Assembly (NCBI GenBank): GCA_043228905.1
Contig: JBHGNT010000001.1
Span: 2,728,001-2,792,000 of the forward strand
Direction of reading: 5' to 3'
Origin: Azolla caroliniana
Lineage: Eukaryota > Plantae > Polypodiophyta
DNA length: 64,000 nucleotides
Position numbers and translations under genes: made by a program. The notes beneath the pieces were generated by a model that did no database searches, was not told the DNA's origin, and worked only from the letters and a program-made list of their open reading frames with translations. The number at the start of each line of letters is the position of its first letter. Positions within the stretch are counted from its first letter, which is position 1. Below are positions 1 through 53,600 of this stretch, one piece after another.

Positions 1-475
1 GAAAAAAGAGACCCAAATGCTCTATTTTCTCTCTTCTGCTAAAAAGATTGACCAAAAGCATTACCTGATAATATGGACATGGATTCCTCCCAAAATGAAA
101 GAGTTTGCTTGCTTTTCCTTGTGCTTTTTCTTTCACCTTTGAAACTTTCTCTCTTTCACTCACTCTGTCTCAATCTCTATCTCTCTCTATCTCGACGTCA
201 CGGCGATGGAGGGGGTGATGGGTTTCAATGCGCCGAGCAGGTTTTGCCGGGAGAAGATCAGAGCAGGGGACGACAGGGACACCGAGCTCTACTATAGTAG
301 TATGTATTGGGGTGAATGAGCCAAATCCAGTAAAAAGCTTAAGGAAGTAGAAGTAGGAAGGAAAGGAAGTTTTCCCTAAGGTTTCAAGAAACTCCAAATA
401 TGACCCTCTAGTCTCCTCAAAATCCCCAAACCGCCCTTCCTTTTCCAAGAGAAAGAAAGAGCCAAAATTAAAATC

Positions 476-25256: not shown

Positions 25257-28200
25257 TTTAGTTTCTAAACCTGGTTAGTTTCTTAAACTAACTAGTAAAC
25301 CCTTCAAAGCCCAAGCTCACAATTCCTATTGTATTATTCTGTCAGAAACCCTAATTTCAAGCTAGTTTCCTAGACGTACCTAATCTCCGTGAACTAGTAG
25401 TGACTCGTGAGTAAGCAATTCCTAGAAGCCTAGCTTCAGACGAGATGGAACGCAAATCGGCCACTTCTTCATTATTTCAGAGATCCTGATTTTCAAATTT
25501 CAACTAGTGGCTACTAGCTAACTAGGTGGTTCGTTACGGAAGGGAACACCCAAAAAAACTGAAGCCACAGGAACAGAAGTAACTCATTCCTTCATTCGTC
25601 ATGAAACCCTAAAGACCTGAATAGCAGCCTGCTTCAACCTGATTTCTACTAACCAGCTGCTACATAACTAGATTCTGATGACCACATACCACTAGATCTT
25701 ACAACGATCTTTCCTGTCTTTCCTTTTCCTCTACGCATAAAATGAAGTCGAAAACACGAGAAATCTATCACAAACTTTTATTTATTTTTACATAACTGTT
25801 TATGTGGCTCTAGCCTTTTTTTCTTTTTAGTGTGTACGTGTGTTTGTTCTATTTGTGTCTGCATTTTCATGCCTTAACTTCGGAGGCTCAAACTTTTCTC
25901 ATTCTCATTCTGATCATTTTTTGCGTACAGTTTTGAAAATTCAAGATAACCCAAAATGGAAATCCATGGCACAAACGGCGGTGAGTTTTAATCAATCATT
26001 CAATAAGAAAACCTTAGCACTTTCGAGTTTCTACTTTTGGTCTAATGCTCCTTTTCATCTTTCAAATTCAGAAGTTCCAATAATAATAATAATCATATAT
26101 ATAAATATAGTATAGACATCAATTTTTTATACAATCATATACATAAATATAGTATACTATAGTATAGCATCATCATCTTTATCTTAATTCTAATCAATAA
26201 TCTATAATCCACTTTTGGGATTGGTATATAAGACTCTCAACTGTAAATTTTTATAACTAATGGAAGGAGTTTTAATTTCAGGAAAAAAAGAAATTAGTTT
26301 TAATTTTAAATTCTATAATCAATCCGAACATGAACCCCAAAGATCCGTCCACTTCCAACTGTTCTTAATTTTCAATGGGGAGTGAAGAAAAGTATGCTGG
26401 CAAATTATCAGAATTTGACCTTTTCCCAATGCTCGATAACAAACAATATATTTATCGTATTTCGCCCAATTAGTTTTTTCTTTTTCCAATATAGGAATTG
26501 TCTGAAATTTTGACAATTGTGAAAGGGGATGTTGTGGAAATTGTATATTTGTTAATGTCGGCATCATCATTTCCAAAACATCAAAAACACTAAATATAAA
26601 TTAAAAGGCTTGCATTCTTATTATATAGTTCTAACTTCTACCTCAAACTCCGCTACTCCTAATACTACTTATTAGTGATACTTTGAACATTTCATGCCAT
26701 GCCATGCCCCATGGCAAAGAATTTTAAGGTATGGAATCTTTATAGAACCCTAAAAAACACTCTGTGTGTTTGATTGAGAGAGAGAGAGAGGTTTTTGTGG
26801 GTGGGTGTTAACATTCCCTATGAAAGATCAAGACACTCTTTCTCAAGCAAAAATATTGACAAAATTGGTGTTGCAAATATAGCCATTGATTTTTAGTTAG
26901 GGAGGAGACAACTCTATGTATGTTTGGGGAGGAGAGGTTGATTGGTTGGTCTTTTTGTAGTGTTTGTTATGAGAGGGTAAAGCTATTCACCTTGGCAATT
27001 TCAATGGTTGTGAAGCCACTTGCTTCTAGTTAGATGCACCCAGCTATTATTAGTAATGCATGAGTTCACACTGTAGTTATGAAATGTATGTGTATACTGA
27101 AGACATTGTCAAAGACTAACAACCTCTAGGTTGCAGGGTGTGAGCTCATTCGCGCATGACGTTGAACCATCACATTTAACTAAGTGATTAACAATTGCGA
27201 AAGGCCAAACATATTATATATATTGAGCAATGCTTTCCGAAATTGTGCATTCACAAAGGTGATGTCTTGCTGGAAACAAAGTACAAGGGTGCACAAAATC
27301 CGCACATTACCTAATATTGACGCGAAATTGAAATGATAGGAATCTTTCCAATCGAACATGTGGTTGTCCATTGTCCGCGACTTTTATCTATCTTGTCTTG
27401 GTAATCCTCTCCCCTATTACACCATACATGCATTAAAATCACTCGTGTATAATCTTTTGATCCAAAATTATTGTCTAATTTATAACAACCTCATTGTAAA
27501 TCCCCCTAGCCCATTGAAGCCCTATCCTTTTATGCTACATGTCTCCACGCTCGACCCTCTGTTTCAATTGTTTTCTTAAAAGATAGAGTTTCCTCAGGAC
27601 TTTATAAAACTTCTCAAAGAGAATTTTGTCATTGACAATGGTTAATGCAAAGTCCAATGCATTTCTAAACTTATGACTCAAAATCAAAGGCATCATTTAT
27701 GCATTGTATTTTACCACATGATAGGCCGTCAATTTCTCTTAATCCCCAAAGTTTTCTACCTCCTATATATAAATTACAAAATGAACAATTGTTTGTGGTT
27801 TAATACGATGATTGAATATTACATGCACATTGTATAGCGTCAATTCTTCCATAACATGTTTATGTTGATCTTTAGGCAACACCTAGCCAAATATATTTTA
27901 TGGTGCGACCAGAGTTGTCCAAAGACAACGTGTGTAGATGAGCATTTTTTTAAGACAAACTTTTAACTACATCTTATTGTTGTTCAATACCATTTGATCA
28001 TGGGTTTTTTCCATCACCTCTAAGCTTTGCAGGTGCTAATACATGTTGATACAAAACACACAAGCCGCAAAAGTGGAAAATCTAGATTATAAAAGGGTTG
28101 TGTAATTATTGAATAACATCATATTATATTGATGGAGAACCGAATAAAGAATGAAACTCACAAGATTCTCCATTCTCGAGAATCATTTACAATGTTACCT

Positions 28201-28836
28201 ATGAGAGGATGCATATTAAATATTGAATATACAAGGGATGGATGACGTCTTGGTACATTACTAGTGTTCATATTGGTTCATAACCATTTACAAGTCATCA
28301 AACTTGTACATGTCCTCATCAAACTCATACAAGTCCTCATCGCTCTCCTCGAAAAATTTATATGGTGGTTGATTTTGTTTTCGATCCTACCATAATGCAA
28401 AAAAAAAACAATATTGGGATTCAGTCATCCCTTATCCAATGGAAACATGCAGTGAAAAATATAATCCTATTCTTAATTTCCCCATTCCACATCAAGAGTG
28501 ACATAAACCATACATTCAACAATATCATTATATCTCGTCTACTACCCATTGCAACTTACCTCCCGACAAGAAGAGCTAAGTCAACAACAGGCCTAAAAAA
28601 CAATCAAGCAACAACAAACCTATTTCGGGTGTTTATATTATATACATAACTAACTACTGTCCCATCATTGACACAACCTAGACAAGTAACTAATAGCCCA
28701 CCATGCCATAATTCCCACAAAAAAGAGAGTGTTGTGAATTGTGATCCTACTAAAATCTACGAAGAAATGTCCACTTGGATCAACTTACTAAGAATTTCCT
28801 AGTTGAATTTATGAAGAAGTGTTTGCTGGGATAGAG

Positions 28837-31367
28837 TCAAACACCAATTCGCACACACACAAATTTGATGAATCCCGGGGGGTGTGTGTTTGGAGTCTTG
28901 GACAGACACTCAAATAACATTGACACAAAATCTGGACATACCTTGGGTAAGAAGCGCATCAATCCTGCAAGGCCAGCCCCATCGTCTTTATCACTATCAC
29001 GGCCAAAACTGGTACCAGTGTCACTCGTGTCATCATGGCCCTCTTCATCTTCATCTTCATCTTGTCGCATCTTGGTGAAGAAGCTGGTGGGGCGACACAG
29101 TACGTTGGTCTTGAAGAAAGCGATGAGCTGCGACTTGAGAAGCTTGACTTGCTCCTTGTTGTTCTGAGTGGATTCCCATAAGGACTTATACCCTTTCACA
29201 AACGACTGCAGGTGCTTTGCCTGCTCAGATTCAGAGAAATCCCTGCAGAGTCGAGAGTAGCTCTCCACGGAGAGGGAATCATCCCAGGACTCGCGAGTGG
29301 GCTGTAGAGCCTTCACATATAAGATGACACCTAAGACTAGCAAAGAGTAGGACATGACTAGGGCCGATGTCCCTCTCATTTGGGTGAAGGCGGACACTAC
29401 AAGCACCCCGAGTACCGCGACCGCGGCCGCCCCGGCCGTGAAGACCGAGGCCGTAATTGTGCCCGCCAGCCCGATGGCCGCCCCCACATTGTAGAGGAGG
29501 TTCTTCAATACCCCGTGCCCTCCCTCGGTCAGGAAGAACTCCCTCAGTATCGCCTTCTCCATGTCCACTGGAACCCTCCATATCTTGCCCAAACCTTTGG
29601 TCACCGCTAACAACATGTAGCCTAGTTGGGTCTGTTGCAACACTGGCATTGCCCCTAGTAGGCATGTGCCGAACAACTCCGACCTACAAGGTTACAGCCA
29701 AATAAGCATCATCATGTGATTCGTATATCGATAATTGCGCATCATACCCTACAACTTGCATGCCAGCCTTAGGATTAGACTTTAGTAAAAGAGAGGAGAA
29801 ATTGGTCTATGTAGGATACCATTATTTGTTTGAAGAGGAGTTAACCAGGGAAAGGTAGACGTGATTCAATAATTCTGAATCAAAGCATGCAAATTTTGCT
29901 CTTTGGACATGACTAAAACCACTTCGGCGATTAAACGCATACACACACATGTCAAATCTAACACATGGAAGACCATAATAGGTTTACCATGTCGGATAGA
30001 TGTTCGTTTGGCCGGTTATCCCGGCCAAAGGCTCTCTTCTACAATTGGTTTTCGAAAGAAACCCAACACAAATGGTCATCAACATCCTCCCTCTGATAGG
30101 GTCGTATATTTCCTTGAGCAGCCCATCACTGATGAGGAGCTATGTACATATTTGGGTGGACCTCGTATGTATGTATAGGGAAATTCCCCTTCATTACTTG
30201 ACCTCTACCCAACCTACTAGACATCAATTTAATCCTTAATCACCAACTTAGGAACATAAAAAAAGCCAAAGAATGGAAAGCAAGTGTAAGAGAAGAAAAG
30301 ACTTGTTCATCATCATCATACACCACAAAGACGACTTGAAATTGAACCCACAATCCAAAGTCCAACGAAGCACACAATTTATCATGGCCAGACCAAAATG
30401 AAATAGTGATATACCTCTTGAGGCTGATGATGAGTTGTGCAGAGGCATTGAGCTTCTCATTAAGGTCGGTGGCTTGGCAAGCTATCCACGTTGCATGGAG
30501 TTCCTTCCCGATTAGGGCCTTGGTTTGTTGTGTGAGGTCCTTGAGCCCAACAAGGTCACGTTGCCCCTCGATGGAACCATCATCCAATTGTTGCACATCG
30601 TTCCCTAGCCTCACCATTGTGTCACGGGAACGTTGTCGCTTGACGGGATCTGAGATTCGTCCCAACAATGTCTCCAGCCTCGAACCTTCCACATTCTTCT
30701 TCACCAACTTCTCGTGGTCGTTAAAAGTCATAATGAGGAGGACCGGTAGGTTCGGGTAGTTGTCGAGCATCTCGAGTAGGCCGCCATCTTCAAGGAACCT
30801 CGTGTCCGCGGCACTGAAGATATACCAAACCACATGGATCTTCTGGCTAAAGTCTTGGTTCATTTGATGTTCATCGAGGAAATGTTTAATGTCATCAAGA
30901 CGGCTCGCTCCAAGCACATCCATGCCGTTGCTATCATGGAAGATCAATGGTAGATCTGGGTCGGGATGGTGCCATTCTAATGTTATGTCTTGGACACCCG
31001 CCGTCCCAACGGCTATAGTTTTGGGCCCTTTCTCTCCCACCACTAGCCTTATGACCGTAGTTTTACCGGAGCCCGACCGACCGACCACCATAATTCTCAC
31101 ATGTTTGAATATCTTATCCAGCTTCCCCTTCACTTCAGTGGACTCTGTAATTTTGGAATACAAATTTTCCAATGTGCTCAAGTTGTCGGTGTTCGTGTTA
31201 TTCGGATCTTCTTCCGTCTTTATATTGCTACTAACTTTCTTGGATTTGCTGCTAGATGGATTGTGAGTAGAAGAGGACGATGGCTCATCCTCTATAGTAT
31301 TGCTCTCTTTCTTCTTCTTCTTTTTTGAAAATGGCTTCATCGACTTTGGGAATGATAAGATGGGCAT
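28837..31367 (-). CDS. P-loop (TRAFAC, MMR_HSR1-like) GTPase with C-terminal hydrophobic helices, copy A, ~599 aa
   Basis: Exons 31367-30415 and 29683-28837 (AG|GTAT...TAG|G, phase 2, 1800 nt). G1 GRSGSGKT, G2 region AGVQDIT, G3 IFHDSNG, IHVVWY strand, G4-position LIMTFND. Hydrophobic segments VGAAIGLAGTITASVFTAGAAAVAVLGVLVVSAF and LVMSYSLLVLGVILYV. The extreme C-terminus may be spliced differently. Confidence 0.88.
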
Positions 31368-32330
31368 GGCTGAAGGAATATATAGGGTTAGGTTTTAAAG
31401 GAGAGAGAGTATTAATTACATGCAAAAGTGTAATTAGGCTTTGGGGTTATGGCAAGGAATCCATGCTAATCCTGGGTGGATTAGCAATCTTGTGTGTTAG
31501 GGAGAGAAATGAGTGAACCCTAAACAACATACAAAGAAAGGATTTTCCTTCTTTCTTGGGGTGGGGGGTGGTGGAAGACTTGACTGAGTCTCATGATAAG
31601 AAACATTTTAGTCAAGCTAGTGGGTACATATAGTACTACTACTACCTTGAAAGTGTTTTTGGCAAGTGGGGATAACACCTTATACCATTGTGTTGCTCTA
31701 GATATGATTCGGGAGTGAATTGTGGCTAATCACGATTATTCCCCAAGTAAATGTGCTTGGATACCATGGAATGAGGATTTGGCAAGGCAATTAGTGTTTC
31801 TAATTGCTCCGTGTTTTCCTTGCATTTAGCGTAAGGAACATTAAAAACAATCTAGGTGCAACCTATTCTTTTAATTACTTGACTTTCAAGCCCCTCAATA
31901 TCCACATTGATAAGAAAATGCCTAGTATGATCAAGAAAATTCAAGTTTGACATATTGTCGTAGAACTTCTAGGATCATCGGCCCCCACCTTTCTCATTGA
32001 CATTGAGGTTGATAATAACAATGATGCATAAATATGAAAAATAGGCATTATTTTAAAATACTCTTGATAGATTCTAAAAGATGCTTTGGCAGCCTAATTG
32101 ACATTTTCTCAGCTTTAGAAGGGCGGGCTTTTGGCTTTTCTTAGTTATAGATCCTGAAGACGTAAGGGGACTAATTTGGTAATTACTGAAATGAGGAGTG
32201 AGGTTGGAGGTATTTTTGTAAATAACCCTAATTAGAGTCATTAAATTTTAATACATATTATTACTGCACGGCGTATTGGAGTGAAAGCCTTCCCTGCTCG
32301 ATTTCACAGTCAGTAGTAGAAACGCAGTAA

Positions 32331-35300
32331 ATGGATTGGGGCAGCAGGGTCTCACGACTAGTTTTGGCTAAATATGGCGATCTACCTAAGCAAGGCAAAC
32401 CACAGGGAACAGAATCAACAGTATTGGCAGGCTTCCTTTTTTCTTTCCTTGAAGAAGAAGATGATGAAGAAGAAGGTATGCATATATCCACCGGAAATAA
32501 ATGATTTAAAGACAAAGGCATGAAACTTGGGATAGTGTGACCATTAGAGGAAGTTCGATTTAGATCTTCCATAAGTTCCTTAAAATTTCGTTGATGATGT
32601 ACTAAAAAATGCTATTATGATATTAGAGTCTGTTGCAGGATCCTACTTTCGAGGGTTAAAATTAGAAACTATATCAAATTCTATCACATAAGTTTCTATT
32701 TTGGAACCATATAAAAATATCATGCATAAATGCATTCCTTTTCCGTTTTGAATCTACCTCAAATGTCAAATGTATTTCATAATAACAAAATCATTGTATT
32801 TCCAATGTACGCCATATTTTTGCAAAAAATCCATTTTTTGTATTTTGCAACTAGATGGAATATTGCAGAAATGTTTCTTTTATAATTTTCCGGCTAACAG
32901 TTTACAATTATATCTAGAATCTTTATTATTACATGCAGAATGTATGTTTTAAGCAAGTAATAACTATTTGGTATCATAAAAGGAAAAATCCATCTTCACA
33001 ATTCTGTTTTGAGTTTGTTTAATTTATTTGATTATCGTAAAAGAAATCTTCGTAATTTGACTATTTATGTGTAGAATTAGAGGTTTTTGCGATAGGAACA
33101 GGAACGAAATGCGTGGGACAGTCATGCATGAGCATTTTGGCAGATATTGTTAGTGATTCTCATGCTGAAATTTGGAATACTGTAATTCTTTTTCCTTATT
33201 TCAGTTCAAATGATGAGTATAATTTGAATTCGGATTTATGGTTATTATATTACTCTAAAGTGGGACATTTCTAAGAGTTTATTATTATTATTTTATATAT
33301 TTCCTTTTAAAATACTTTCAATTTTGTCAGATAAGAATATTTCCTCTTACTAAGGTCTTGCTTAGAAAGCTTTTGATGTTTTGAGAAGTAGATGCGTGTT
33401 CTTTATGCATCTCAGACCTTGCCTATATAGCTATTATTCATCCCAAAAAGTTCACTTTCAATGAAGTTTGACTATTAACGTGAATTAAAAGGAAGAAACA
33501 CTAGACAAAAAAACTGTTAATAAATCTTGTAGGGCTCAAATGTGTTGGAAAAGATGTGATATAGATATAATCTCATGCACCGAAACTTAGATATTCTTGT
33601 GGTTTCTACTTCATATTCAGAATTCCTACCAGAAATCAAGATGTTAAAGTTACACGATTTTAATTATTTTCATGATCCATTGCTAGAAATAACACGCGAA
33701 AAATTAAAATACTATTGTGGGTTTTTACTTTGTATTGAGATTTCGTGCCAAGAATCAAGGTGTTATAGATATACAATTTGAATTATTTTCCTGGGCAACT
33801 GCTAGAAATATAAAAACGTTTGTAAGAGAAGTCAATTCATGCAATCATATTGTGTGGTTGATGGCCTCCAAAATGCTGTATATAACAATACTTGAATTCA
33901 TTTTAGAAGGGAGGAATATCTTGTTCTTTATTATTGTTAAAGAGAAATTGGAGTTTTAAATTCATGTTCTGGTACTTTTTAGTAATTTTTAAGACTCAGA
34001 GAAACTTACTCGTATGGTCGTTGAATTTCCATTTTTATTATAGATACATCTATTCTCAAATTGAAGCAATAATAAGGCGCAAAATTCAATTAAGAGTCCA
34101 ATGAAATAATGCTGATATTCACAAGAACAAGGACTTCTTTGAGTGGGATCCAAAACAAAAAAAACTAAAGCTTCGTGCAAATATCCAACTACACATATAC
34201 ATCAGCCAACTGCCTTGTAAGTGCCTTCCTTATTTATGCAATTGTAAGAACTTTTGATAAACAATTGTTGGATGCTGAAATTTCCTCCATTTCTTCTGGA
34301 TTTATTGTGAGATTAAGGTGGAGATGCATGCGTAATTCCATCTATTGATGTGGATAATATTCCATACTTCAAGGAAAATGGTTACTTGAGTGTTCAATCA
34401 CCTGCTGGAGGGGCAGTGAGAAGAAAACCTGGTTGCGGTGATGCCACATTTCAATGAGCTGTAGTGACAAAATTGCTTTATGGAATCTCTTAGGCGTTGA
34501 AGGTTAGTTTATTGCATTCGAAACATTCAGTTTCATTTAGAAGTAGAACTATTTGGCAAGTTTCTTTTAAAAACATATAATTTCAAGTATAAAAACTTAT
34601 CTGCAGTACATGAGTTAAAAGTTTACTGTTTCTGTTGCAATAAATACTAAGTCTGAACTCTATGCATGGTCATGATTTCAAGATTACTGTTGCAATAAAT
34701 ACCAAGCCAGACGCTTACAGGATTTAACTCCAATAAACCGGGAAAATATGTTAGTTTTAACTAACGGTTTTGAGTTTATATGCTGTTTGTTATTATTATA
34801 AAATGTAGCATCCCCTCTTTTTGAACAATAATGAATGCCTCATTTTTTCTTGAGATTTATAATGAACTCCAGTTTTGTAATGACAAGAAATGTTGTGTCT
34901 GTAGGATCCCTTCTTTCTGGATTGTTATTGGAGCCATTATATCTTACTAGCATCATAGTTGGCACGAATAATTATCGTGTAGAGAGTGGATCAATAATTG
35001 AATTCGATGAAGTTCTGCAGAGAAAGCAGTATCTTGATTCTTTACAAAGGTCTTTGTATGATCACATATGTGATTTGTCTTCTCATTTGCAATCTCCATT
35101 CAGAGCCAACCAGGCAAGAAATCTTAAATTGATTCATTTATAGTTGAATATATTTCGTAAAAATATGCCTTTCAGCTACAAGTCTTTTTTTATAATTATG
35201 GAAATGCTGTATGAGTAGCTCGCAATGTTCCGTTATATATATATTTGTAAAAAGTACAAGTCTCAGTGCTTATTATTGTCAATAGGAGTGTTGTATTATT

Positions 35301-35875
35301 AGTGAATTGTTTCTCTGTCATTCCCTTTAATTTTTCATTGGTTAGAAGGCCAGAGCCATTGTGATATTTATGCTGTTTTTGAAAACTTTGTTCAAAATTT
35401 TGATTTCAAAAGAAAATAGTGCTCTCAATCATATAAGTGATTGAAACTTGATATGATGGCATTAATTTCTAGAAAAATTCATGCAATGCAACAGAATACC
35501 AATCATGCATACTGTTCTAGGCTTACAATTTTGATACAGTTAAGAGTGTGGTATGGTGACAGGCAAGCATTTTTAAGAGTGTATATATTTCTCTTCATTG
35601 TCATTTATCCCCCAACTTGGACTTGAGACATGTTTCATATAAAACGATAAAGGTGACTTTTCTTTATCCTGTATATTAATTTGTTGGAACTTGGTTTGTT
35701 TTTTAACCTCTATTTGCTTTCTTTAGTTTCTACCTTTTATTTGCTTTCTTTCCAGGAGAGATCTGAATCTTATATGAGAACCAAGAAGGAAATTTTTAGC
35801 TGTCTGCCCTTCTCACATTGGTTCAGAAAGCCTCGTCAATTTAAAGAATTCAACCTGTTTAGTTGTGTAAAATAA
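32331..35875 (+). pseudogene. TAD1: TAD1/ADAT1 pseudogene (copy A)
   Basis: Colinear with 50676-56706 but has a 32-bp deletion at ~33171 removing the end and donor of exon 2 right after HAE, a 1-bp deletion at ~34447 before MSCSDK, and a ~2.4-kb deletion at ~35467 removing exons 6-7. Confidence 0.92.
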
Positions 35876-36990: not shown

Positions 36991-37977
36991 GAGAGAAACA
37001 CCATAGTCTTCGTTGAGTCAACATATTTGTCCACCCAAGTTGCCCATGTCGTCATTGCCTTTGTAAATGCGACCATCAAATTCAGCTTGGGATGGACATT
37101 CTCCCCCTCAATGTAGAAATATTTCCTTCCCTAGCACAAGAAGAAACTTAGTGTTTTGCTTAATATAATTCAGTGATAACTATGGTCAAGATGAAGTGTT
37201 TCCTGAATATAATACAAAGAGAACCATTGTCTAGACTAAAGCAGCCACCCACCCTCTAGCAATTTTCCTGCAAGTCCACCAATGTCCAATTGTGAACACG
37301 AGAATGTTTGCACGTTTCCAATAGAAATGTGATTCATGTACTCGATCCAATCTCAATCTGGAGATCTTTGAGTTATTATATTCCTCATCTACCAGAAACT
37401 GTGAGCTATAATACTACGAATGGAATTCATAATCCTTACACAATGCAAGAAAACCTAAGCTTGAGTACAAAGTTTATGGGAGATTGATCAACCTGAGGGG
37501 GAAGGGGCATGATTAATAACGGTTTGCACTGCATAAACTTTCTTTATTCTAGCAATAATACTCCTCATATACCTCAGAAGAAATTGTTATGCTCAAAACA
37601 TTACCAATAATATATAATTCATATATGTATAATAATGTATTTATACATAGTGCGAGAGAAATTTATATTTAGCTTATTGGAACTCTTTCATTGCAAGACA
37701 AAATAGTTTTTTGCATCAACCAGTTGAAGAAACCATTTCAAGGTACACTTCATATAATAAATTTCAATGCATGCAAGTAATAAAGACCAGCAATGGATGA
37801 CGTCAATAAGGACACTTGGAATTTGAATATGTAGCTACTCTTATGCTTCCCAATATTTTCTCTATGTATTTCAAACACTCTACTCTTGTTTGGTAACGTT
37901 TCACTAAGTAAGCAAAGCATGGATTCCCATTGGTTCCGGCTCAATGAATCACCCACAAAAACCATATGTTTACCCGT
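36991..37977 (-). pseudogene. TBL: Partial TBL duplicate (part of exon 2, exon 3, most of exon 4, with introns)
   Basis: Aligns with 23554-24545. In-frame TAG at 37416-37414. Exon 1 and exon 5 (DCSHW) are absent; the 5' side is cut by an LTR-like element. Confidence 0.93.
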
Positions 37978-38800
37978 TGTCGTGAAGATCCGTCACTACG
38001 TGCGGATCGTGAGGTGGAACCATCGGGGTCCTGGACCAGAAGGATTCGAAGTTTGCACTAACTTTAGCGAGAAAGTATTTAAGATAGATTGAGAGAGATT
38101 GATATGACGAAAGAGAGATATTGAGATAAAGATCGAACTTTTAACTTTTAGATTTAAGAGAGAAGATACATCAACAATAGGATTACAAGTTTCTTATTTT
38201 TCCCAAAATTTTCATTAGTTTTATTTGCTTGATTCCTCCACTCTTTTATAGATGCCCCTAGGCATATGGTGCATGTGAGGATGCAAGACATGCACATAAT
38301 GCATGCAATGCATGCACGTAATGCATGAAATGCATGCTTGCCATGTCATTATCTAAGCTCTCATGTATGAGAATTTCATGTAAATCTATAATGATAGAAA
38401 TATAACTTTTAAGGAAATGACTTGGCCTAGTGGTAAGTATATTGCTTCCTATCTTGGAGGTGTAATGTTCAAGCCTTGCTAACATCCCTTTTAAAATACA
38501 AAATACTACTAGGCTTTTGGTCTTGTATTTTACACCGAAAATCTTCAAAACACCATGCACCGCGATCAACCAACCGATCCGTCTGTCCCGACCGGTTCAA
38601 TCCGTCCTGATCTGATCCTGTCTGTCGTCGTCCGGTCGCCGCCTCGACGGATTCGGCTGTCTCACCATCTTCGTCTGGTCACCGCCTCGCCGTATCTATC
38701 CGGTTCCGGTCAGCCATCTGTCCTGATTCGATCCTGTCCGTCGCCATCCGATCGTCACCTCGACGGATATGTCTGGTTCCGGTGGGCCAAAATCTTGACA
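37978..38800. mobile_element. Solo-LTR-like element (~820 bp)
   Basis: Starts TGTCGTGA and ends TCTTGACA (TG...CA with short imperfect inverted ends). Starts exactly where TBL homology stops. Contains a CpG-rich subrepeat block at 38560-38790. Flanks differ (CCCGT vs AGTAG). Confidence 0.65.
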
Positions 38801-43831: not shown

Positions 43832-46090
43832 TCACACTCTATGTGTTTGATTGAGAGAGAGAAAAAGAGAGAGGTTTTTGTGGGTGTTTGTTAGCATTTC
43901 CTACAAAAGGTCAATACACTCTTTTGTGGCAAAAATATTGACAAATTTGGTGCTGCAAATAAAGCCATTGGTTTTTAGTTAGGGAGAAGACACTATATAT
44001 GTGTTGGTGGTGCAAAGGTTGATTGGTTTTTTTTGTGGTGTTTGTTATGCCCTTGGCAAATTCAATGGTTGTGAAGCCACTTGCTTTTAGTTAGAACCAC
44101 CCAAGTCTTATTAGCAATGCATGAGTTCACATTGTAGTTATGAAATGTATGTGTTATACAGAAGACATCGTCAAAGATTAACAACCTCCAGGTTGTAGAG
44201 CAAGAGCTCATTCGCACATGTTTTTAGACCATCAGATTGTGAATTTCAAAACTATATAATTAACAAATGTGAACGGCCAAACATATGATATATACTCAGG
44301 GCAATGCTTTTCGAAATTGTGCATTAGCATAGGTGATGTCTTGTTGGAAACAAAGTAGGGCAAGCAAGGTTGATAGAACATGAAGGATGAGGGTGCACAC
44401 AATCCACACATTACCGTAACATAGCAATATTGACTCGAACTTGAAATGATAGGAATCTTTCCAATCGAACATGTGGGTGTCCATTGTCTGCAACTTTTAC
44501 TTACCTTGTTTCTGTAATCCCCTCCCCCGTTACACCGTACATGCATTAAAATCACTCGTGTATAATCTCCTGATCCAAAATTATTGTCTAATTTATAACA
44601 ACCTCATTGTAAACCCCTAGCAAAGCCCCCTCCTTTTATGCTACATATCTCCACTCTCCACCCTCAGTTTCAATTATTTTCTTAAAAGATAGAGTTTCCT
44701 AGGGACTTTGATATTTCTTAAAGAGGATTTTGTTATTGAGGATGGTTAATTCAAGTCCAACACATTTCTAAACTTATGACTCGTAGGCAAAGGCATCATT
44801 TATGCATCGTATTTTAGCATATGAAGACCCATCAATTTCTCTTAATCCCCAAAGTTTTCTACCTCTTATATATAAATTACATTTTTTTAATTTTTTTTTC
44901 CAAAAAAAATAAATTACAAAATTAACGGCGTAGCCCTAAACCTTGTAATAATTTATTTCTACTTCCTAATTCTTTTTAGGAGGGATTCAAGGTCCTGCTG
45001 ATGCTATATATGTGTGTGAGAATTTACCTTGTTTGTGGTTAATTTGAATATTGCATGCGTATTGTATGGCGTCAATTCTTCGATAACATGTTTATGTTGA
45101 TCGCTAGGCAACAACTAGCCAAATATATTTTATGGTGCAACAAGACTTGTCCAAAGACAACATGTGTAGACATTTGGTGAGCGTTTTTTAAGCCTAACAT
45201 TTAACTGCATCTTATTGTTGTTCAATACCATTCGATCATGGGGCTTTTACATCACCTCTAAGCTTTCCAAGTGCTAATATAAGTTGATACAAAACACACA
45301 CACACACACACACACACTAAAAAAGAGGAAATCCTAGATTATAAAAGGGTTATGTAATTATTGAATAACATCATATTATATGGATGGAGAACCAAATAAA
45401 GAATGAAACACATAAGATACTCCATTCTCGAAACTCATTTACAATGTGTACCTATGAGAGGATGCGTATTTATTGAGCATACAAGGGATGGATGACATCT
45501 CGGTACATAACAAGTGTCCATAATGGTTCATCACCATTTACAAGTCATCAAACATGTACATGTCCTCATCAAACTCATACAAGTCCTCATTGCTGTCCTC
45601 GAAAAATTTATATGGTGGTTGATTTTGTTTTCGATCCTACCACATAATGCAAAAAAAAAACTAGTATTAGGATTAATGCAAAAAAAAAAACCAATACTGG
45701 GATTCAATCATCCCTTATCCAATGGAAATATGCATTGAAAAATATAATCCTTTTCTTAATTTCCCCATTCCACATCAAGAATGACATAAACAATACATTT
45801 AACTCTATCATTATATCTTCTATGCTACCCATTGCAACGTACCCCCCAACAAGAAGAGCTAAGCCGACTCCATGCCTAAAAACCAATCAATGAGAAACAA
45901 ACCTATTTCAGGTGTTTACATTATATAACTGACTATCCCATCATTGACACAACCCAAACAATTGGCTAGTAGCCCACTATGCCATAATTCCCACAATACT
46001 AATTTACGAAGAATTCATACTCAACTCTTGGAAGAAATGTCCACTCGGATCAACTTACTAAGAATTCCTAGTCGTACTTACGAAGAATTC

Positions 46091-48698
46091 CTACTTGGAT
46101 AAACTCAAACACCAAATCGCACACACGAATTTGATGAATCCTGGGGCGTGTGTTTGGACAGATATATACTCAAATAATATTGTCAAATCTGCACATACCT
46201 TGGGTAAGAAGCGCATCAAACCTGCAAGGCCAGCCCCATCTTCTGTATCACCCATGTTATCACTATCATGCCCAAAACTGGTACCAGTGTCACTCGTGTC
46301 ATCATGGCCCTCTTCTTCTTCTTCTTCTTCATCCTCATCTTCTTGTCGCATCTTGGTGAACAGGCTGGTGGGGCGACACAGTACGTTCGTCTTGAAGAAA
46401 GCGATGAGCTGCGACTTGAGAAGCTTGACTTGCACCTTGTTGTTTTGAGTGGATTCCCATGAGGACTTATACTCTTCCACAAACGACTGCAGGTGCTTTG
46501 CCTGCTCAGATGCAGAGAAATCCCTGCAGAGTCGAGAGTAGCTCTCCACGGAGAGGGAATCGTCCCAGGACTCCCGAGTGGGCTGGAGAGCCTTCGCATA
46601 TAAGATGACACCTAAGACTAGCAAAGAGTATGACATGACTAGGGCCGATGTCCCTCTCATTTGGGCAAAAGCGGACACTACAAGCACCCCGAGTACCGCG
46701 ACTGCGGCCGCCCCGGCCGTGAAGACCGAGGCCGTAATTGTGCCTGCCAGCCCGATGGCCGCCCCCACATTGTAGAGGAGGTTCTTCAATACCCCGTGCC
46801 CTCCCTCGGTCAAGAAGAACTCCCTCAGTATCGCCTTCTCCATGTCCACCGGAACCCTCCAAATCTTGCCCAAACCTTTGGTCACCGCTAACAACATGTA
46901 GCCTAGTTGGGTCTGTTGCAACACTGGCATTGCCCCTAGTAGGCATGTGCCGAACAACTCCGACCTACAAGGTTACAGCCAAATAAGCATCATCATGTGA
47001 TTCGTATATCGATAATTGCGCATCATACCCGACAACTTGCATGCCAGCTTTAGGATTAGACTTTAGTAAAAGAGATGAGAAATTGGTCCATGTTGGACAC
47101 CATTATGTGTTCGAAGAGGAGTTAACCAGGGAACGGTAGACATAATTAAATAATTCTGAATCAAAGCATGCATTTGCTCTTTGGACATGACTAAAACCAC
47201 TTCGGCAAGTAAATGCATACACACACATATAAAATCTAACACATGGAAGACCATAATAGGTTTACCATGTCAGATAAATGTTCGTTTGGCAGGTTATCCT
47301 GGCCAAAGGCTCTCCTCTACAATTGGTTTTCCAAAGAAATCCAACACAAATGGTTGTCAACATCCTCCCTCTAATAGTTGATCACAAAGGATAAATGGGT
47401 GAGCCAAGTAAATGGTACCACCTGAATTTTGCAATTGGGGTCATATATTTCCTTAACCAGCCCATCACTAATGAGGAGGTGTGTACATATTTGGGTGGAC
47501 CTCGTATGTATGTATAGGGAAATTCCCCTTCATTACTTGATCTCTACCCAACCAACTAGACATCAATGTAATCCTTAATCACCAACGTAGGAACATACAA
47601 AAAGCCAAAGAATGGAAAGCAAGTGTAAGAGAAGACTTGTTCATCATCATCATACACCACAAAGATGACTTGAAATTGAACCCACAATCCAAAGTCCAAT
47701 GAAGCACACGATTTATTGTGGCCAGACCAAAATGAAATAGTGATATACCTCTTGAGGCTGATGATGAGTTGTGCAGAGGCATTGAGCTTCTCATTAAGGT
47801 CGGTGGCTTGGCAAGCTATCCACGTTGCATGGAGTTCCTTCCCGATTAGGGCCTTGGTTTGTTGTGTGAGGTCCTTGAGCCCAACAAGGTCACGTTGCCC
47901 CTCGATGGAACCATCATCCAATTGTTGCACATCGTTCCCTAGCCTCACCATTGTGTCACGGGAACGTTGTCGCTTGACGGGATCCGAGATTCGTCCCAAC
48001 AATGTCTCCAGCCTCGAACCTTCCACATTCTTCTTCACCAACTTCTCGTGGTCGTTAAAAGTCATAATGAGGAGGACCGGTAGGTTGGGGTAGTTGTCGA
48101 GCATCTCGAGTAGGCCACCATCTTCAAGGAACCTCGTGTCCGCGGCACTGAAGATGTACCAAACCACATGGATCTTCTGGCTAAAGTCTTGGTTCATTTG
48201 ATGTTCATCGAGGAAATGTTTAATGTCATCAAGCCGGCTCGCTCCAAGCACATCCATGCCGTTGCTATCATGGAAGATCAATGGTAGATCTGGGTCGGGA
48301 TGGTGCCATTCTAATGTTATGTCTTGGACACCCGCCGTCCCAACGGCTATAGTTTTGGGCCCTTTCTCTCCCACCACTAGCCTTATGACCGTAGTTTTAC
48401 CAGAACCCGACCGACCCACCACCATAATTCTCACATGTTTGAATATCTTATCCAGCGTCCCCTTCACTTCAGTGGACTCTGTAATTTTGGAATACAAATT
48501 CTCCAATGTGCTCAAGTTGTCGGTGTTCATGTTATTCGGATCTTCTTCCATCTTTATATTGCTACTAACCTTCTTGGATTTGCTGCTAGATGGATTGCGA
48601 GTAGAAGGGGAAGAAGGCTCATCCTCTATAGTATTGCTCTCTTTCTTCTTCTTCTTTGAAAATGGCTTCATCAACTTAGGGAATGATAAGATGGGCAT
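46091..48698 (-). CDS. P-loop (TRAFAC, MMR_HSR1-like) GTPase with C-terminal hydrophobic helices, copy B, ~607 aa
   Basis: Exons 48698-47749 and 46964-46091 (1824 nt) with the same intron position and phase as copy A. G-domain protein identical to copy A; longer acidic tail. Confidence 0.88.
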
Positions 48699-49295
48699 GA
48701 CTGAAGGAATATATAGGATTAGATTTTAAAGGAGAGAGAGTATTAATTACATGCAAAAGTGTAATTAGGCTTTGGGGTTATGGCAAGGAATCCATGCTAA
48801 TCCTAGATGGATTAGCAAGCTTGTGTGTTAGGGAGACAAATGAGTGAAACCTAAACAAAATACAAGGAAAGGATTTTCCTTTTTTGGGGGGCTGGGGGGT
48901 GGTGCAAGACTTCACTAGGTCTCATGATAACAAACATTTTAGTCAAGCCAATGTGGTTGGATACCATGGAATGAAGCTCTGGCAAGGCAATTAGTGTTTC
49001 TAATTGCTTTGTGTTTTCCTTGCATTTGGCGTAAGGAACATTAAAAACAATCTAGGTGCAACCTATTCTTTTAATTGCTTGAATTTCAAGCCCCTTAATA
49101 TCCATGTTGATAAGAAAATGCCTAATATGATAAAGAAAATTCAAGTTTGACATATTCTCGTAGAACTTCTGTGATTGTTTTAAAATACTCTTGATTGATT
49201 TAAAAAGATGCTTTGAGAGCCTAATTGACTTTTTTTCGGCTTTAGAAGGGCTTTTTGGCTTTTCTTAGTTATAGATCCTAAAGACATAAGGGGAC

Positions 49296-50096
49296 CAGTG
49301 TTGCCTTTTGACGGCTAATATTGCCTGTCATGAGAACAGTATTCCAAAAAATTTGCATGTCAAATGACGATTACTCAAAAAAATGTCCTTCAAAAAGAAA
49401 ATACATCGAATATTTGTACTAAACAATATATTATATCCTTCTGTCCCTTGCATCTTTCCAAATTTCATATACATGATCTCATTGTATTTCTTCAATGTGT
49501 GGCCCATTCAATGAGACTCGCATAAAATCATTTAAATGTTCTATATTCAATCAATTTCTTTTCATCTCTTTGATGAGATTTTGATCAGAGAACCCTCTCT
49601 CACACAAAACCGTGCTAGATGGAATAACCAAAGTAGCATGCCATAATTTCATCAAATGAGGGAAACTATCTTTCTAATCCTTCATTTCACAAAACATATG
49701 CCTAGCTTCATGCATAGTATAGCCTTCACAATTTAAACTTAAAGTGTCAACAAACCTATAGAGTTCCATTTCACAAGCCTTTGCATCAGGTAACTTTTGA
49801 AGACATGCATTGACATCGACATTTGGTTGTAAGTGAGAAATCAAAATTCCCAACCATGACTTCGCTTTACTATCCCTAATCACATCATCATTTGCATAAT
49901 GGCATGGGCTAAATAATTTTGCTACATTGAAGAGGCTTAAGTCAGGGAACCTTGCATATAGTCCATCAATAATTTTTTGCACATAATTTTGAGATAGTTT
50001 AATACAACTTTCAAGTGATCCATCTATAAATGGTCTCATTCCCTTAGATTTTGCAAATATTGGGATTTGTATCATTGTGACTTGCTTTATCAATAT

Positions 50097-50145
<49 letters not shown>

Positions 50146-50496
50146 AAGAGAGGAATGGGCTGAAAATCAAAGAAGCCCTGAGTTTATTTTCAAACTATGC
50201 ATATGTCCGGGCACTTCTTCTCCTTTATCATGTCACATAACATATGTTTACACATTTATCTTTCTCAAATAAAACTATACGCTATGGCCTATAAATTGTA
50301 ATTTGTAAATACTAATACATGTACTATTGTTTTGGTCTTAGCCAAATTTGACAGTATTAACAAATTTTAAACCTTCATTTTTACGTTTTTATAAAATATA
50401 ATCCCTGCAAGATTGACGGTTTTATTATCAAATTAACCTTCATATACGGTTAAATTTGCCAAAAACGGTCAAAACGGCCGTCAAAAGGCAACACTG
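49296..50496 (-). mobile_element. Internally deleted hAT DNA transposon (1.2 kb)
   Basis: Perfect 20-bp TIRs CAGTGTTGCCTTTTGACGGC (49296-49315, 50477-50496). Minus strand encodes a hAT dimerisation-domain remnant FPHLMKLWHATLVIPSSTVLCERGFSDQNLIK..RN*L with stops. Absent from the paralogous site at ~32171. Confidence 0.93.
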
Positions 50497-50675
50497 AATG
50501 TAGGGGAGTATTTTGGTAATTACTGAAATGTTGGAGATTTCGTAAAACGTTGGGGTATTTTTGTAAATAACCCTAATTAGAGTCATTAAATTTTAATACA
50601 TATTATTACTGCACGGCGTATTGGAGTGAAAGCCTTCCCTGCTCGATTTCACAGTCAGTGGTAGAAACGCAGTAA

Positions 50676-53600
50676 ATGGATTGGGGCAGCAGGGTCTCAC
50701 GACTAGTTTTGGCTAAATATGACGATCTACCTAAGAAAGGCAAACCACAGGGAACAGAATCAACAGTATTGGCAGCCTTCCTTTTTTCTTTCCTTGAAGA
50801 AGATGAAGAAGAAGAAGGTATGCATATATCCACCGGAAATAAATGATTTAAAAACAAAGTCATGAAACTTGGGATACTGTGACCATTAGAGGAAGTTCCA
50901 TAGGATTGCGATCTTCCATAAGTTCCTTAAAATTTCATTGATGATGTACTAAAAAATAGTAATATGATATTAGAGTCTGTTGCAAGATCCTACTTTCAAG
51001 GGTTAAAATTAGATTCTATGCTCATTTTCCCCTCTCAATCAAGAGACTAGATGGAGAATACAATAATTGTTTGTACTTTGAACCTATATCAAATTCTATC
51101 ACACAAGTACTTATTTTTTTCTATTTTGGAACCATATAAAAATTATCATGCATAAATGCATTCCGTTTCCGTTTAGAATCTATGTCAAATGTATTTCTTG
51201 AAAAAAAGTTCAATGTATTTCTAATGTACGCCATATTTTTGCAAAAATGCATTTCTTTGTATTTTGCAACTATATGGAATATTGCAGAAATGTTTCTTTT
51301 ATATTTTTCCGGCAAACAGTTTACAATTATATCTAGAATCTTTATTATTACATACAGAATGTATGTTTTAATCAAGTAATAATTATTTGGTATCACCAGA
51401 GGAAAAATCCATCTTCACAATTCTGTTTTGAGTTTAATTTATTTGATTATCATAAAAGAAATCTTCGTAATTTGACTATTTATGTGTAGAATTAGAGGTT
51501 GTTGCGATAGGAACAGGAACAAAATGTGTGGGACAGTCACGCATGAGCATTTTGGGAGATATTGTTAGTGATTCTCATGCTGAAATAGTTGCAAGACGAG
51601 CTCTAATAAGGTCTGTCTTTGAAATGCTGTAATTATTTTTCCTTATTTCAGTTGAAATGATGAGTATAATTTGAATTCGGATTTATGGTTATTATATTAC
51701 TCTAAAGTGGGACATTTCTAAGATTTTTTTATTTTTATTTTTATACAAAGACTTCCAATTTCGTCAGATAAGAATATGTTAATACCATATCTTACTAATG
51801 TCTTGCTTAGAAAGCTTTTAATGTTTTGAGAGGTAGATGGCTTGTTCTTTGTGCATCTCAGACCTTGCCTATATAGCTATTATTCATCCCAAAAAGTTCA
51901 CTTTCAATGAAGTTTGACTATTAACATATATTCAAAAGAAGAAATACTAGACAAAAAACTGTTAATAAATCCTGTAGGGCTCAAATGTGTTGGAAAAGAT
52001 GTGATATAGATATAATCTCATGCATGAAACTTAAATATTCTTGTGGTTTCTACTTCATATTGAGAATTCCAACCAGAAATCAAGATGTTAAAGTTACACA
52101 ATTTTAATTATTTTCATGATCAATTGCTAGAAATAACATGTGAAAAATTAAAATACTATTGTGGGTTTTTACTTTGTATTGAGATTTCGTGCCAAGAATC
52201 AAGGTGTTATAGATATACGTTTTGAATTATTTTCCTGGGCAACTGCTAGAAATATAAAAACGTTTGTAAGAGAAGTCAATTCATGCAATCGTAGTGTCTG
52301 GTTGATGGCCTCCAAAATGCTGTAGATAACAATACTTCAATTCATTTTAAGAGGGAGGAATATCTTGTTTGTTATTATTGTTAAAGAGAAATTGGAGTTT
52401 TAAATTCATATTCTGGTACTTTTTAGTAATTTCCATTTGTATTATAGATATATTTATTCTCAAATTGAGGCAATAATAAGACGCGAAAGTCAATTAAGAG
52501 TCCAATCAAATGATGCTGATATTCACAAGAACAAGGACGTCTTTGAGTGGGATCCAAAAATAAAAAAGGTAAAGCTTCGTTCAAATATACAACTACATCT
52601 ATACATCAGCCAACTGCCTTGTAAGTGCCTTCCTTATTTATGCAATTGTAAGAACTATTGATAGAAAATTGTTGGATGCTGAAATTTCCTTGTTTTCTTC
52701 TGGATTTATTGTGAGATTAAGGTGGAGATGCATGCATAATTCCATCTACTGATGTGGATAATATTCCATACTTCAAGGAAAATGGTTACTCGAGTGTTCA
52801 ATCACCTGCTGGAGGGGCAGTGAGAAGAAAACCTGGTCGTGGTGATGCCACACTTTCAATGAGCTGTAGTGACAAAATTGCTTTATGGAATCTCTTAGGC
52901 GTTCAAGGTTAGTTTATTGCATTCGAAACATCCATTTTCATTTAGAAGTAGACCTCTTTGCTAAGTTTCGTTTAAAAACATAGAATTTCAAGTATAAAAA
53001 CTTATCTGCAGTACATGAGTTAAAAGTTTACTGTTTCTGTTGCAATAAATACTAAGTCTGACCTCTATGCATGGTCATGATTTGAAGTTTACTGTTGCAA
53101 TAAATACCAAGCCGGACGCGTACAGGATTTAACTCCAATAAACCGGGAAAATATGTTAGTTTAAACTAAAGGTTTTGGGTTTATATGCCTTTTGTTATTA
53201 TTATAAGGTGTAGCATCACCTCTTTTTGGACAATAATGAATGCCTCATTTTTTCTTGAGATTTATAATGAACTCCAGTTTTGTAATGACATGAAATGTTG
53301 TGTCTGTAGGATCCCTTCTTTCTGGATTGTTATTGGAGCCATTATATCTTACTAGCATCATAGTTGGGATGAATAATTATCGTGTAGAGAGTGGATCAAT
53401 AATTGAATTCGATGAAGTTCTGCAGAGAAAGCAGTATCTTGATTCTTTACAAAGGTCTTTGTATGATCGCATATGTGATTTGTCGTCTCAATTGCAATCT
53501 CCATTCAGAGCCAACCAGGCAAGAATATCTTAAATTGATTCATTTATATTTGAATATATTTCGTAAAAATATGCCTTTCAGCCTTTCAGAAACAAGTCTC

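What the first reader, a model, noticed from the sequence alone, without database searches (positions are those of the whole stretch)
28837..31367. Membrane-anchored GTPase of fungal/bacterial type in a plant genome (candidate horizontal acquisition)
Seen: a two-exon ~600-aa gene with a basic N-terminus, a G domain (RIMVVGRSGSGKTT, AGVQDITLE, LIFHDSNG, IHVVWY, PVLLIMT), a W..CQ..DL.EK helix, two to three hydrophobic helices and an acidic tail. The exons are visibly GC- and CpG-richer than the TAD1 and TBL exons. From recalled family knowledge, the string RILVxGxxGxGK...AGxHDIxxE...LHDSxG...HAIW[YF]...Q.V...K fits the MMR_HSR1-type G-domain proteins expanded in fungi and bacterial GTPase-DUF697/YcjF-like proteins. 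It does not fit plant Toc34, AIG1/GIMAP, dynamin, RHD3 or Era-like proteins. Inference: an uncharacterised, possibly horizontally acquired membrane-acting GTPase, perhaps in defence, which has gained a spliceosomal intron.
Basis: partly seen in the sequence, partly recalled or inferred. Interest (0 to 1): 0.85.

Follow-up and report, generated by a model that had tools for sequence, protein, structure and literature searches.

The report
Fern GTPase family shared with fungi
This is a real, spliced fern gene for an undescribed GTP-binding protein family whose closest relatives outside plants appear to be fungal and bacterial; it is predicted to pair up and to be built like the membrane-attacking immunity GTPases of mice, so it likely acts on membranes, possibly in defence, but transfer from fungi is not proven.

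Summary
The gene is real and spliced, but has three exons (597 aa), not two. A near-identical copy lies 17 kb away (G domain: 8 synonymous, 0 replacement changes), and an intronless array of 5 intact plus broken copies lies on another contig. All named close relatives are ferns. The family matches bacterial GTPase-DUF697 proteins (HH 99.9%) and fungal G-domain proteins. In a rooted tree the plant clade is sister to, not inside, the fungal clade (95/89); a bacterial-sister tree and nesting in fungi are not rejected (AU 0.19, 0.11). Five unnamed deep relatives may put the family outside ferns. A model of a relative overlays mouse IRG GTPases over G domain plus helical bundle (Z 16.0, rmsd 5.1, 286 residues), though it fails IRG sequence tests. 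The G domain is predicted to dimerise through a conserved arginine (0.47 vs control 0.00). GC richness is not diagnostic. Ten literature searches found no description; the scan had no earlier look-alike. Verdict: undescribed dimerising, likely membrane-acting GTPase; defence role and horizontal origin plausible, unproven.

The parts
30415..31367 (-). Copy A exon 1: basic N-terminus, whole G domain, linker helix
29684..30414 (-). Copy A intron 1, 731 nt, GT..AG, phase 2
   Evidence: joined out in 4 of 4 runs
28942..29683 (-). Copy A exon 2: helical domain with hydrophobic hairpin and acidic stretch
28387..28941 (-).
   Evidence: joined in 2 of 4 runs; reads may be of copy B type; sites read
28288..28386 (-). 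Copy A exon 3: 32-residue acidic/aromatic tail and stop
31059..31082 (-). G1 / P-loop GRSGSGKT (residues 96-103)
   Evidence: sequence; conserved in all three clades
30924..30938 (-). G3 HDSNG; the His is shared by plant and fungal rows
30798..30800 (-). Arg190, conserved; touches the partner's P-loop and switch I in the predicted dimer
30717..30728 (-). G4 TFND (Asp kept, Lys of N/TKxD replaced)
29302..29475 (-). Gly/Ala-rich hydrophobic hairpin, residues about 388-445; likely membrane-inserting
   Evidence: hydropathy; low-confidence tip of a long helical hairpin in models
45538..48698 (-). Copy B, intact three-exon paralogue (604 aa), part of a tandem duplication with TBL and TAD1 pieces

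Best explanation
The gene is a spliced, purifying-selected member of an undescribed fern GTPase family, kin to bacterial GTPase-DUF697 and fungal G-domain proteins, that is predicted to dimerise head to head through its G domains and likely works as the IRG GTPases do, loading on a target membrane through its hydrophobic hairpin and damaging or remodelling it, most likely in defence against microbes. Shown: gene structure, splicing, constraint, family ties, tandem turnover. Predicted by models: IRG-like layout, G-G dimer with Arg190 reaching the partner's P-loop. Inferred: GTP hydrolysis triggered by dimerisation, membrane insertion, defence role. Origin, inferred and least sure: an old exchange with the fungal lineage (direction unknown), from a family that began in bacteria, at or before the origin of leptosporangiate ferns, with no seed-plant member seen.
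For: Splicing in 4 of 4 runs. dN/dS: copy A vs B G domain 8 synonymous, 0 replacement changes; vs orthologue L091 0.13. hhalign fern vs bacterial profile 99.9%, E 2.7e-33, 250 columns running past the G domain into the AQxVD helix and PIPF motif. VIA re-alignment of the model of relative P0020 (pLDDT 69, pTM 0.70): GM4951 Z 16.0 rmsd 5.1 286 aligned; Irga6 Z 14.5 rmsd 5.3 287; Irgb10 Z 14.4 rmsd 5.2 275, all over model 48-52..420-421; Irgb6 Z 13.5 rmsd 5.5 285 in the wide search; most other rows stop near residue 264. Homodimer of the window's G domain with GTP/Mg: score 0.47, best of 3 controls 0.00; mark reached by 20 of 30 solved pairs and 1 of 23 single chains (eukaryotes 17 of 29 and 0 of 30); runs agree in at least 82% of contacts, pLDDT at least 77; Arg190 contacts residues 98 and 121-123 of the partner. 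That Arg is in 17 of 18 plant, 38 of 42 fungal-clade, 37 of 37 bacterial-clade rows; Irga6 has a catalytic-interface Arg159 after Thr158 and before Phe160 (PMC3042988 passages; matched by eye to T189-R190-F191). Birth-and-death array on C13: 5 intact and at least 3 broken copies in 180 kb, dN/dS 0.37-0.63; 4 of 5 intact C13 copies start with Cys clusters, Ceratopteris P0016/P0025 with MGxxxS. Fungal tie: plant+fungal clade 95/89; His before the G3 Asp in 18 of 18 plant, 42 of 42 fungal-clade rows against 1 of 37 others; Atlas first hits Basidiomycota clusters 0.97 and 0.98 (one source).
Against: YsxC ties with GM4951 on Z (15.5 vs 16.0) and EngB leads the wide search; identity to IRGs is 8-15%; the model is of a relative, from 12 sequences; the window's own exon-2 model (pLDDT 63) has no clear match (best Z 6.4). 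By sequence the bacterial profile is closest to septins (E 5e-15) and no IRG is among the 60 rows shown of 111. The dimer pass may be memory of solved Toc34/septin/GIMAP/IRG dimers. No positive selection was seen (all dN/dS under 1), and the window's copies are tightly conserved, unlike a fast-evolving defence gene. The top IRG match, GM4951, is a lipid-droplet protein (PMC12749288 passages). AU tests reject neither plant+bacteria (p 0.19) nor nesting beside the Basidiomycota-type rows (p 0.11). Only 4 of 22 fungal-clade rows in that tree carry a fungal name, and hits were picked with a fern profile, which may favour shared motifs. No stress or infection expression data were available.
Confidence: 0.5

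Rival explanations
1. Same biochemistry, housekeeping job: a dimerising membrane GTPase for lipid droplets, plastid or ER membranes, or autophagic turnover, with no defence role.
For: Best structural match GM4951 acts on lipid droplets (PMC12749288 passages); Toc34 is among the top Foldseek rows; strong purifying selection on the window's copies; fungal relatives are fused to a Tle1-like lipase domain (13 of 37 proteins scanned); the tail ends in an acidic F-D-D-L that resembles an ATG8-binding motif (recalled, untested).
Against: No named seed-plant member, tandem birth and death on C13 and patchy, sometimes tandem bacterial members (10 of 80 loci) fit conflict genes better than core cell biology.
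Confidence: 0.3
2. Origin rival: an ancient eukaryotic family inherited vertically and lost in most lineages, as argued for Mx GTPases.
For: Plant and fungal clades are reciprocal sisters with long stems, no nesting; five unnamed deep rows (P0028, P0032, P0033, P0034, P0045) fall in the plant clade outside the fern group and may be algae or bryophytes; P0103 is unplaced; precedent PMC11789081 (abstract).
Against: Among the 24 hits at E<=1e-30 from 1.84 billion representatives, the 4 that carry an organism name are all ferns; no named animal, seed-plant or protist row appeared in the 28 proteins looked up, though most have no name.
Confidence: 0.3
3. Origin rival: plants took the gene directly from bacteria, separately from fungi; the plant-fungal likeness is convergence or long-branch pull.
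For: AU p 0.19 for plant+bacteria; the quick trees put the midpoint root between fungi and plant+bacteria; BLAST scores to the best fungal and bacterial rows are close (82 vs 74 bits); intronless C13 copies; bacterial transfer to ferns has precedent (PMC9477723 passages).
Against: Rooted careful tree 95/89 for plant+fungi; shared His-Asp-Ser G3, G4 Asp (17 of 18, 40 of 42, vs 6 of 37) and lack of the bacterial GxPVT switch I (33 of 37 bacterial, 2 of 42 fungal, 0 of 18 plant).
Confidence: 0.2
4. Contamination: fungal or bacterial DNA assembled into the plant genome.
For: An earlier scan note reports a fungal piece elsewhere in this assembly (unchecked).
Against: Flanked by PMR5/TBL and tRNA-deaminase genes and duplicated with them; spliced transcripts; orthologues on long scaffolds of Ceratopteris and Adiantum.
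Confidence: 0.01

Closest known systems
Bacterial GTPase + DUF697 proteins (Pfam PF01926 + PF05128; e.g. Nostoc commune, Dolichospermum rows)
   Same: G domain, conserved Arg, AQxVD linker helix, PIPF-like motif and Gly/Ala-rich hydrophobic stretch, colinear.
   Different: His before G3 Asp, no GxPVT switch I, G4 Asp kept, longer helical tail, N- and C-terminal extensions, introns; DUF697 model itself does not hit exon 2. No function is described for the bacterial family in the library searched.
Fungal 'G domain-containing proteins' (Botryobasidium, Pleurotus) and Tle1/DUF2235-lipase fusions (Paramyrothecium, Orbilia)
   Same: HDSxG G3, G-x-H/Q-D-I switch I, G4 Asp, linker helix; sister clade.
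   Different: About 20-25% identity; no lipase fusion in the fern proteins; fungal G4 is mostly TKxD.
Vertebrate immunity-related p47 GTPases (Irga6, Irgb6, Irgb10, GM4951)
   Same: Predicted layout of G domain, linker helix and C-terminal helical bundle; switch I pattern G-x-x-D-I-T-L-E against Irga6 G103-x-x-E106-V107-T108-M109-E110, and T-R-F against T158-R159-F160 (residues from PMC3042988 passages, matched by eye); tandem turnover; acylation-type N-termini in some paralogues.
   Different: 8-15% identity, no PF05049 hit, G4 lacks Lys, Thr108 equivalent in only 3 of 18 plant rows, no myristoylation motif in this copy, stronger hydrophobic hairpin, about 150 more residues.
Toc34/Toc33, septins, AIG1/GIMAP (dimerising TRAFAC GTPases)
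   Same: G-domain fold, septins closest by profile to the bacterial kin, head-to-head dimer with a trans-acting Arg (Toc33 R130A title; rest recalled).
   Different: No family model hit; a large C-terminal helical bundle absent from the Toc34 and septin matches.

Membership tests
TRAFAC P-loop GTPase (MMR_HSR1-type G domain) | G1 GxxxxGK[ST], G3 DxxG, G4 with Asp, G-domain fold | tested here: met
   fold. PF01926 E 0.002 is under its cut-off for this copy but over it for relatives P0017 and P0021.
TRAFAC P-loop GTPase (MMR_HSR1-type G domain) | GTP binding and hydrolysis | not testable with these tools
   needs an assay; G4 is TFND, G2 Thr not conserved
Bacterial GTPase-DUF697 family | Profile homology over G domain and the start of the DUF697 region | tested here: met
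   hhalign 99.9%, E 2.7e-33, 250 columns
Bacterial GTPase-DUF697 family | Pfam DUF697 (PF05128) hit on the C-terminal part | tested here: inconclusive
   no hit on exon 2 at E<=1; bacterial kin hit it only near the cut-off
IRG / p47 GTPases | G domain packed on a C-terminal helical domain via a linker helix | tested here: met
   on the model of relative P0020: 268-288 residues aligned, rmsd 4.4-5.5, Z 13.2-16.0
IRG / p47 GTPases | Pfam IIGP (PF05049) sequence match | tested here: not met
   not among 15 families at E<=1 for exon 1; phmmer to Irga6 E 0.23-0.6, not significant; some bacterial kin hit PF05049 on the G domain (P0037, P0050, P0061)
IRG / p47 GTPases | G4 Lys184-x-Asp186 | tested here: not met
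   TFND; Lys in 0 of the 4 commonest plant residues at that column
IRG / p47 GTPases | Catalytic interface Glu106/Thr108/Arg159 | tested here: inconclusive
   Asp127/Thr129/Arg190 by eye; Arg conserved, Asp 13 of 18, Thr 3 of 18; E106D does not hydrolyse in Irga6
IRG / p47 GTPases | N-terminal myristoylation motif MGxxxS (in many, not all IRGs) | tested here: not met
   this copy starts MPILSF; Ceratopteris P0016 and P0025 do fit
IRG / p47 GTPases | Infection-induced loading on pathogen membranes | not testable with these tools
   only assembled contigs were available
Toc34/Toc159 | TIGR00991/TIGR00993 match | tested here: not met
   no hit at E<=0.001 for exon 1 or fern relatives
AIG1/GIMAP, septin, dynamin, RHD3 | Pfam family match at cut-off | tested here: not met
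   AIG1, Septin, RHD3 absent at E<=1; Dynamin_N 15.5 bits against 27
Horizontally acquired gene | Nesting inside the donor clade with alternatives rejected | tested here: inconclusive
   sister, not nested; AU 0.19 and 0.11
Horizontally acquired gene | Absence from related plant and algal lineages | tested here: inconclusive

The most novel reading that the evidence does not exclude
Ferns (perhaps other seed-free plants) carry an IRG-like cell-autonomous immunity system, exchanged long ago with fungi and lost in seed plants, and the vertebrate IRGs, the fungal G-domain/lipase fusions and the bacterial GTPase-DUF697 proteins are one ancient family of dimerising, membrane-attacking conflict GTPases.
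Probability: 0.25. Interest if true: 0.85.

Novelty: new variant of a known kind. Interest (0 to 1): 0.6.

Why it matters
Plants are not known (recalled; not found) to have IRG-type GTPases, and the 2005 IRG survey found no clear homologue outside vertebrates, only look-alikes in bacteria (PMC1297648 passage). A fern family with that predicted layout, turning over in tandem arrays and shared with fungi, would give a testable candidate for a defence route of seed-free plants, a first functional handle on an uncharacterised bacterial and fungal family, and a clue to where IRGs came from. If the job is housekeeping it is still a new plant GTPase family.

Tried and rejected
Longer-protein search of the G domain: none of 4052 candidates scored (weak). 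No RNA holder was on record as RNA; the evidence is the spliced contigs. Metagenome scan for the deep subgroup: 100 stretches, none confirmed; second scan gave 53 loci, fern-like, bacterial and fungal-like pieces, none that places the deep subgroup. PADLOC: no hit for the window's exons; weak G-domain hits only in relatives. Bacterial neighbourhoods of 80 loci: no shared partner gene beyond kin synteny. Exon-2 model alone: no Foldseek hit at E<=0.001, best VIA Z 6.4; this does not show a new fold. Viral structures: G-domain-level rows only. IIGP-like bacterial outgroup: only weak hits in 3 of 3 genomes, not used. GC/CpG as a sign of transfer: rejected. Contamination: rejected. Positive selection: not seen in 6 pairwise comparisons. 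Podospora and Sordariales papers mention MMR_HSR1 for other genes (passages). Earlier scan findings: none by sequence or words. Rows left out of trees: 21 near-duplicates and fragments; thinned to 97, 54 and 60 rows; 7 cyanobacterial ORFs too distant for, 5 of them plus L090 used as outgroup.

Full report
Gene structure. Exon 1 (31367..30415) holds a basic, Ser-rich N-terminus and the whole G domain. Contigs of 4 of 4 public runs join 29683 to 30415 across a 731-nt GT..AG intron and none covers the intron. A second intact copy (604 aa) lies at 45538..48698 with the same splice sites, inside a tandem duplication that also carries TBL and TAD1 pieces. Contigs of both allele types were laid; those across intron 2 may be of copy B. 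Between A and B the G domain has 8 synonymous and 0 replacement changes; against orthologue L091 dN/dS is 0.13.

Family in this genome. A search of the genome found 10 matches of 11 candidates: the two window copies and eight on contig C13. Reading 195 kb there shows 5 intact, intronless copies and at least 3 truncated or split ones plus fragments among retrotransposons, at about 43% identity to the window's G domain, with pairwise dN/dS 0.37-0.63. Four of the five intact copies begin with Cys-rich termini, which suggests lipid anchors (recalled).

Relatives. Pfam gives only a sub-threshold MMR_HSR1 hit; Toc34, AIG1, septin, dynamin and Era models are not met. A profile search of 1.84 billion representatives gave 2376 hits at E<=0.001 and 24 at E<=1e-30. 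Four of the 24 carry an organism name, all ferns (Ceratopteris richardii, Adiantum capillus-veneris); A. nelumboides adds two more. So the window is a fern by inference and the family is older than this species. Five unnamed, more distant rows (P0028, P0032, P0033, P0034, P0045) group with the ferns but outside them; they may be algae or bryophytes, and I could not place them. Below these come bacterial MMR_HSR1+DUF697 proteins (Nostoc, Dolichospermum named) and fungal G-domain proteins (Botryobasidium, Pleurotus; Paramyrothecium and Orbilia with an N-terminal Tle1-like lipase). The fern and bacterial profiles align at 99.9% over 250 columns, past the G domain.

Origin. Unrooted trees give three separate groups. 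With a cyanobacterial outgroup the plant and fungal clades are sisters (95/89), the plant clade not nested (4 of 22 fungal-clade and 13 of 20 bacterial-clade rows are named, the rest labelled by clade). A His before the G3 Asp is in 18 of 18 plant and 42 of 42 fungal-clade rows but 1 of 37 others; the bacterial GxPVT switch I is in 33 of 37, 2 of 42 and 0 of 18. Against: AU tests reject neither plant+bacteria (p 0.19) nor nesting in fungi (p 0.11), and the rows were chosen with a fern profile. I put old plant-fungus exchange at about 0.5, vertical inheritance with loss at 0.3 (Mx precedent, PMC11789081 abstract), separate bacterial transfer at 0.2. GC content is no help: a native permease exon in the window is richer.

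Structure and mechanism. The spliced protein could not be folded, so a full-length relative (P0020) was: pLDDT 69, pTM 0.70, N-terminal helices, G domain, linker helix, helical bundle with a long hairpin whose tip is the hydrophobic, low-confidence stretch. Foldseek lists EngB, Toc34, IRGs, septins and bacterial dynamins together. On re-alignment the IRGs are the rows that consistently cover both parts: GM4951 Z 16.0 (rmsd 5.1, 286 residues), Irga6 14.5, Irgb10 14.4, against about 165 residues for YsxC (Z 15.5, tied); Irgb6 does so in the wide search. The window's exon 2 folded alone matches nothing clear, and by sequence the bacterial kin are nearest septins. So it may work like an IRG but fails membership by sequence. 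The window's G domain is predicted to form a head-to-head dimer (0.47, best control 0.00; mark reached by 20 of 30 solved pairs, 1 of 23 single chains; contacts agree at least 82%, pLDDT at least 77), with Arg190 on the partner's P-loop and switch I; this may be memory of solved dimers. Arg190 is near-invariant in all three clades, and Irga6 needs an Arg in the same T-R-F setting for oligomerisation and hydrolysis (PMC3042988 passages). The proposed cycle, all inferred: GTP binding, G-G dimerisation, hairpin insertion into a target membrane, hydrolysis, membrane damage or remodelling. Defence is preferred because of tandem turnover, no named seed-plant member, fungal lipase fusions and the IRG layout; a lipid-droplet or organelle job like that of GM4951 (PMC12749288 passages) is the main rival, and no infection data were at hand.

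Literature. Ten full-text searches (listings and abstract starts seen) found no account of this family. Passages seen: PMC9477723 (fern transfers are Tma12, aerolysin-like, PAD; 'GTPase' 0 times; 9 supplementary files without the Ceratopteris gene ids or PF01926, one picture file not searched), PMC12448838 and PMC12512272 ('GTPase' 0 times), PMC1297648. Subscription papers, including large plant-transfer catalogues (recalled), were not searchable and may list the family without describing it.

Verdict. Observation partly confirmed, interpretation partly supported. An undescribed plant branch of a bacterial-fungal GTPase family with a predicted IRG-like build: new variant of a known kind, interest 0.6.

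Noticed in passing
window 26757-35471 vs 43834-53888; 37753-37992: Tandem duplication of about 17 kb carrying TBL (PMR5/PC-esterase), the GTPase and TAD1-like deaminase pieces; the second TBL looks reduced to fragments.
   Followed up: partly
G000:C13:18210825-18389785: Intronless tandem array of the family, two subtypes, with N-terminal Cys clusters, N-terminal 15-residue repeats in one subtype, and copies broken by stops or retrotransposons.
   Followed up: yes
window 28288-28386: Exon 3 tail is acidic with spaced Phe/Tyr and ends FDDL, like an ATG8-binding or FFAT-type motif (recalled); kept in copy B.
   Followed up: no
window 28385 to 30414: One contig in run X1 joins exon 3 to the end of exon 1 with unknown letters between; possible skipping of exon 2 or an assembly effect.
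   Followed up: no
proteins P0040, P0041, P0042, P0044, P0051, P0052, P0054 and others: Ascomycete-type relatives fuse the GTPase behind a Tle1-like (DUF2235) lipase domain: 13 of 37 proteins scanned; an undescribed lipase-GTPase pairing as far as my searches went.
   Followed up: partly
P0016, P0035, P0036, P0037, P0050; loci L016, L038, L045, L058: Tandem G domains in one chain (Ceratopteris, Nostoc, Faecalibacterium) and tandem gene pairs in 10 of 80 bacterial loci, fitting a G-G dimer mechanism.
   Followed up: partly
L091:1556-2202: An orthologue with the same first intron whose second exon shifts frame midway; broken copy or assembly error.
   Followed up: no
L090:4101-6155: Moorena protein with a Ser/Thr-kinase-like N-terminus fused to a related GTPase (by eye).
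   Followed up: no
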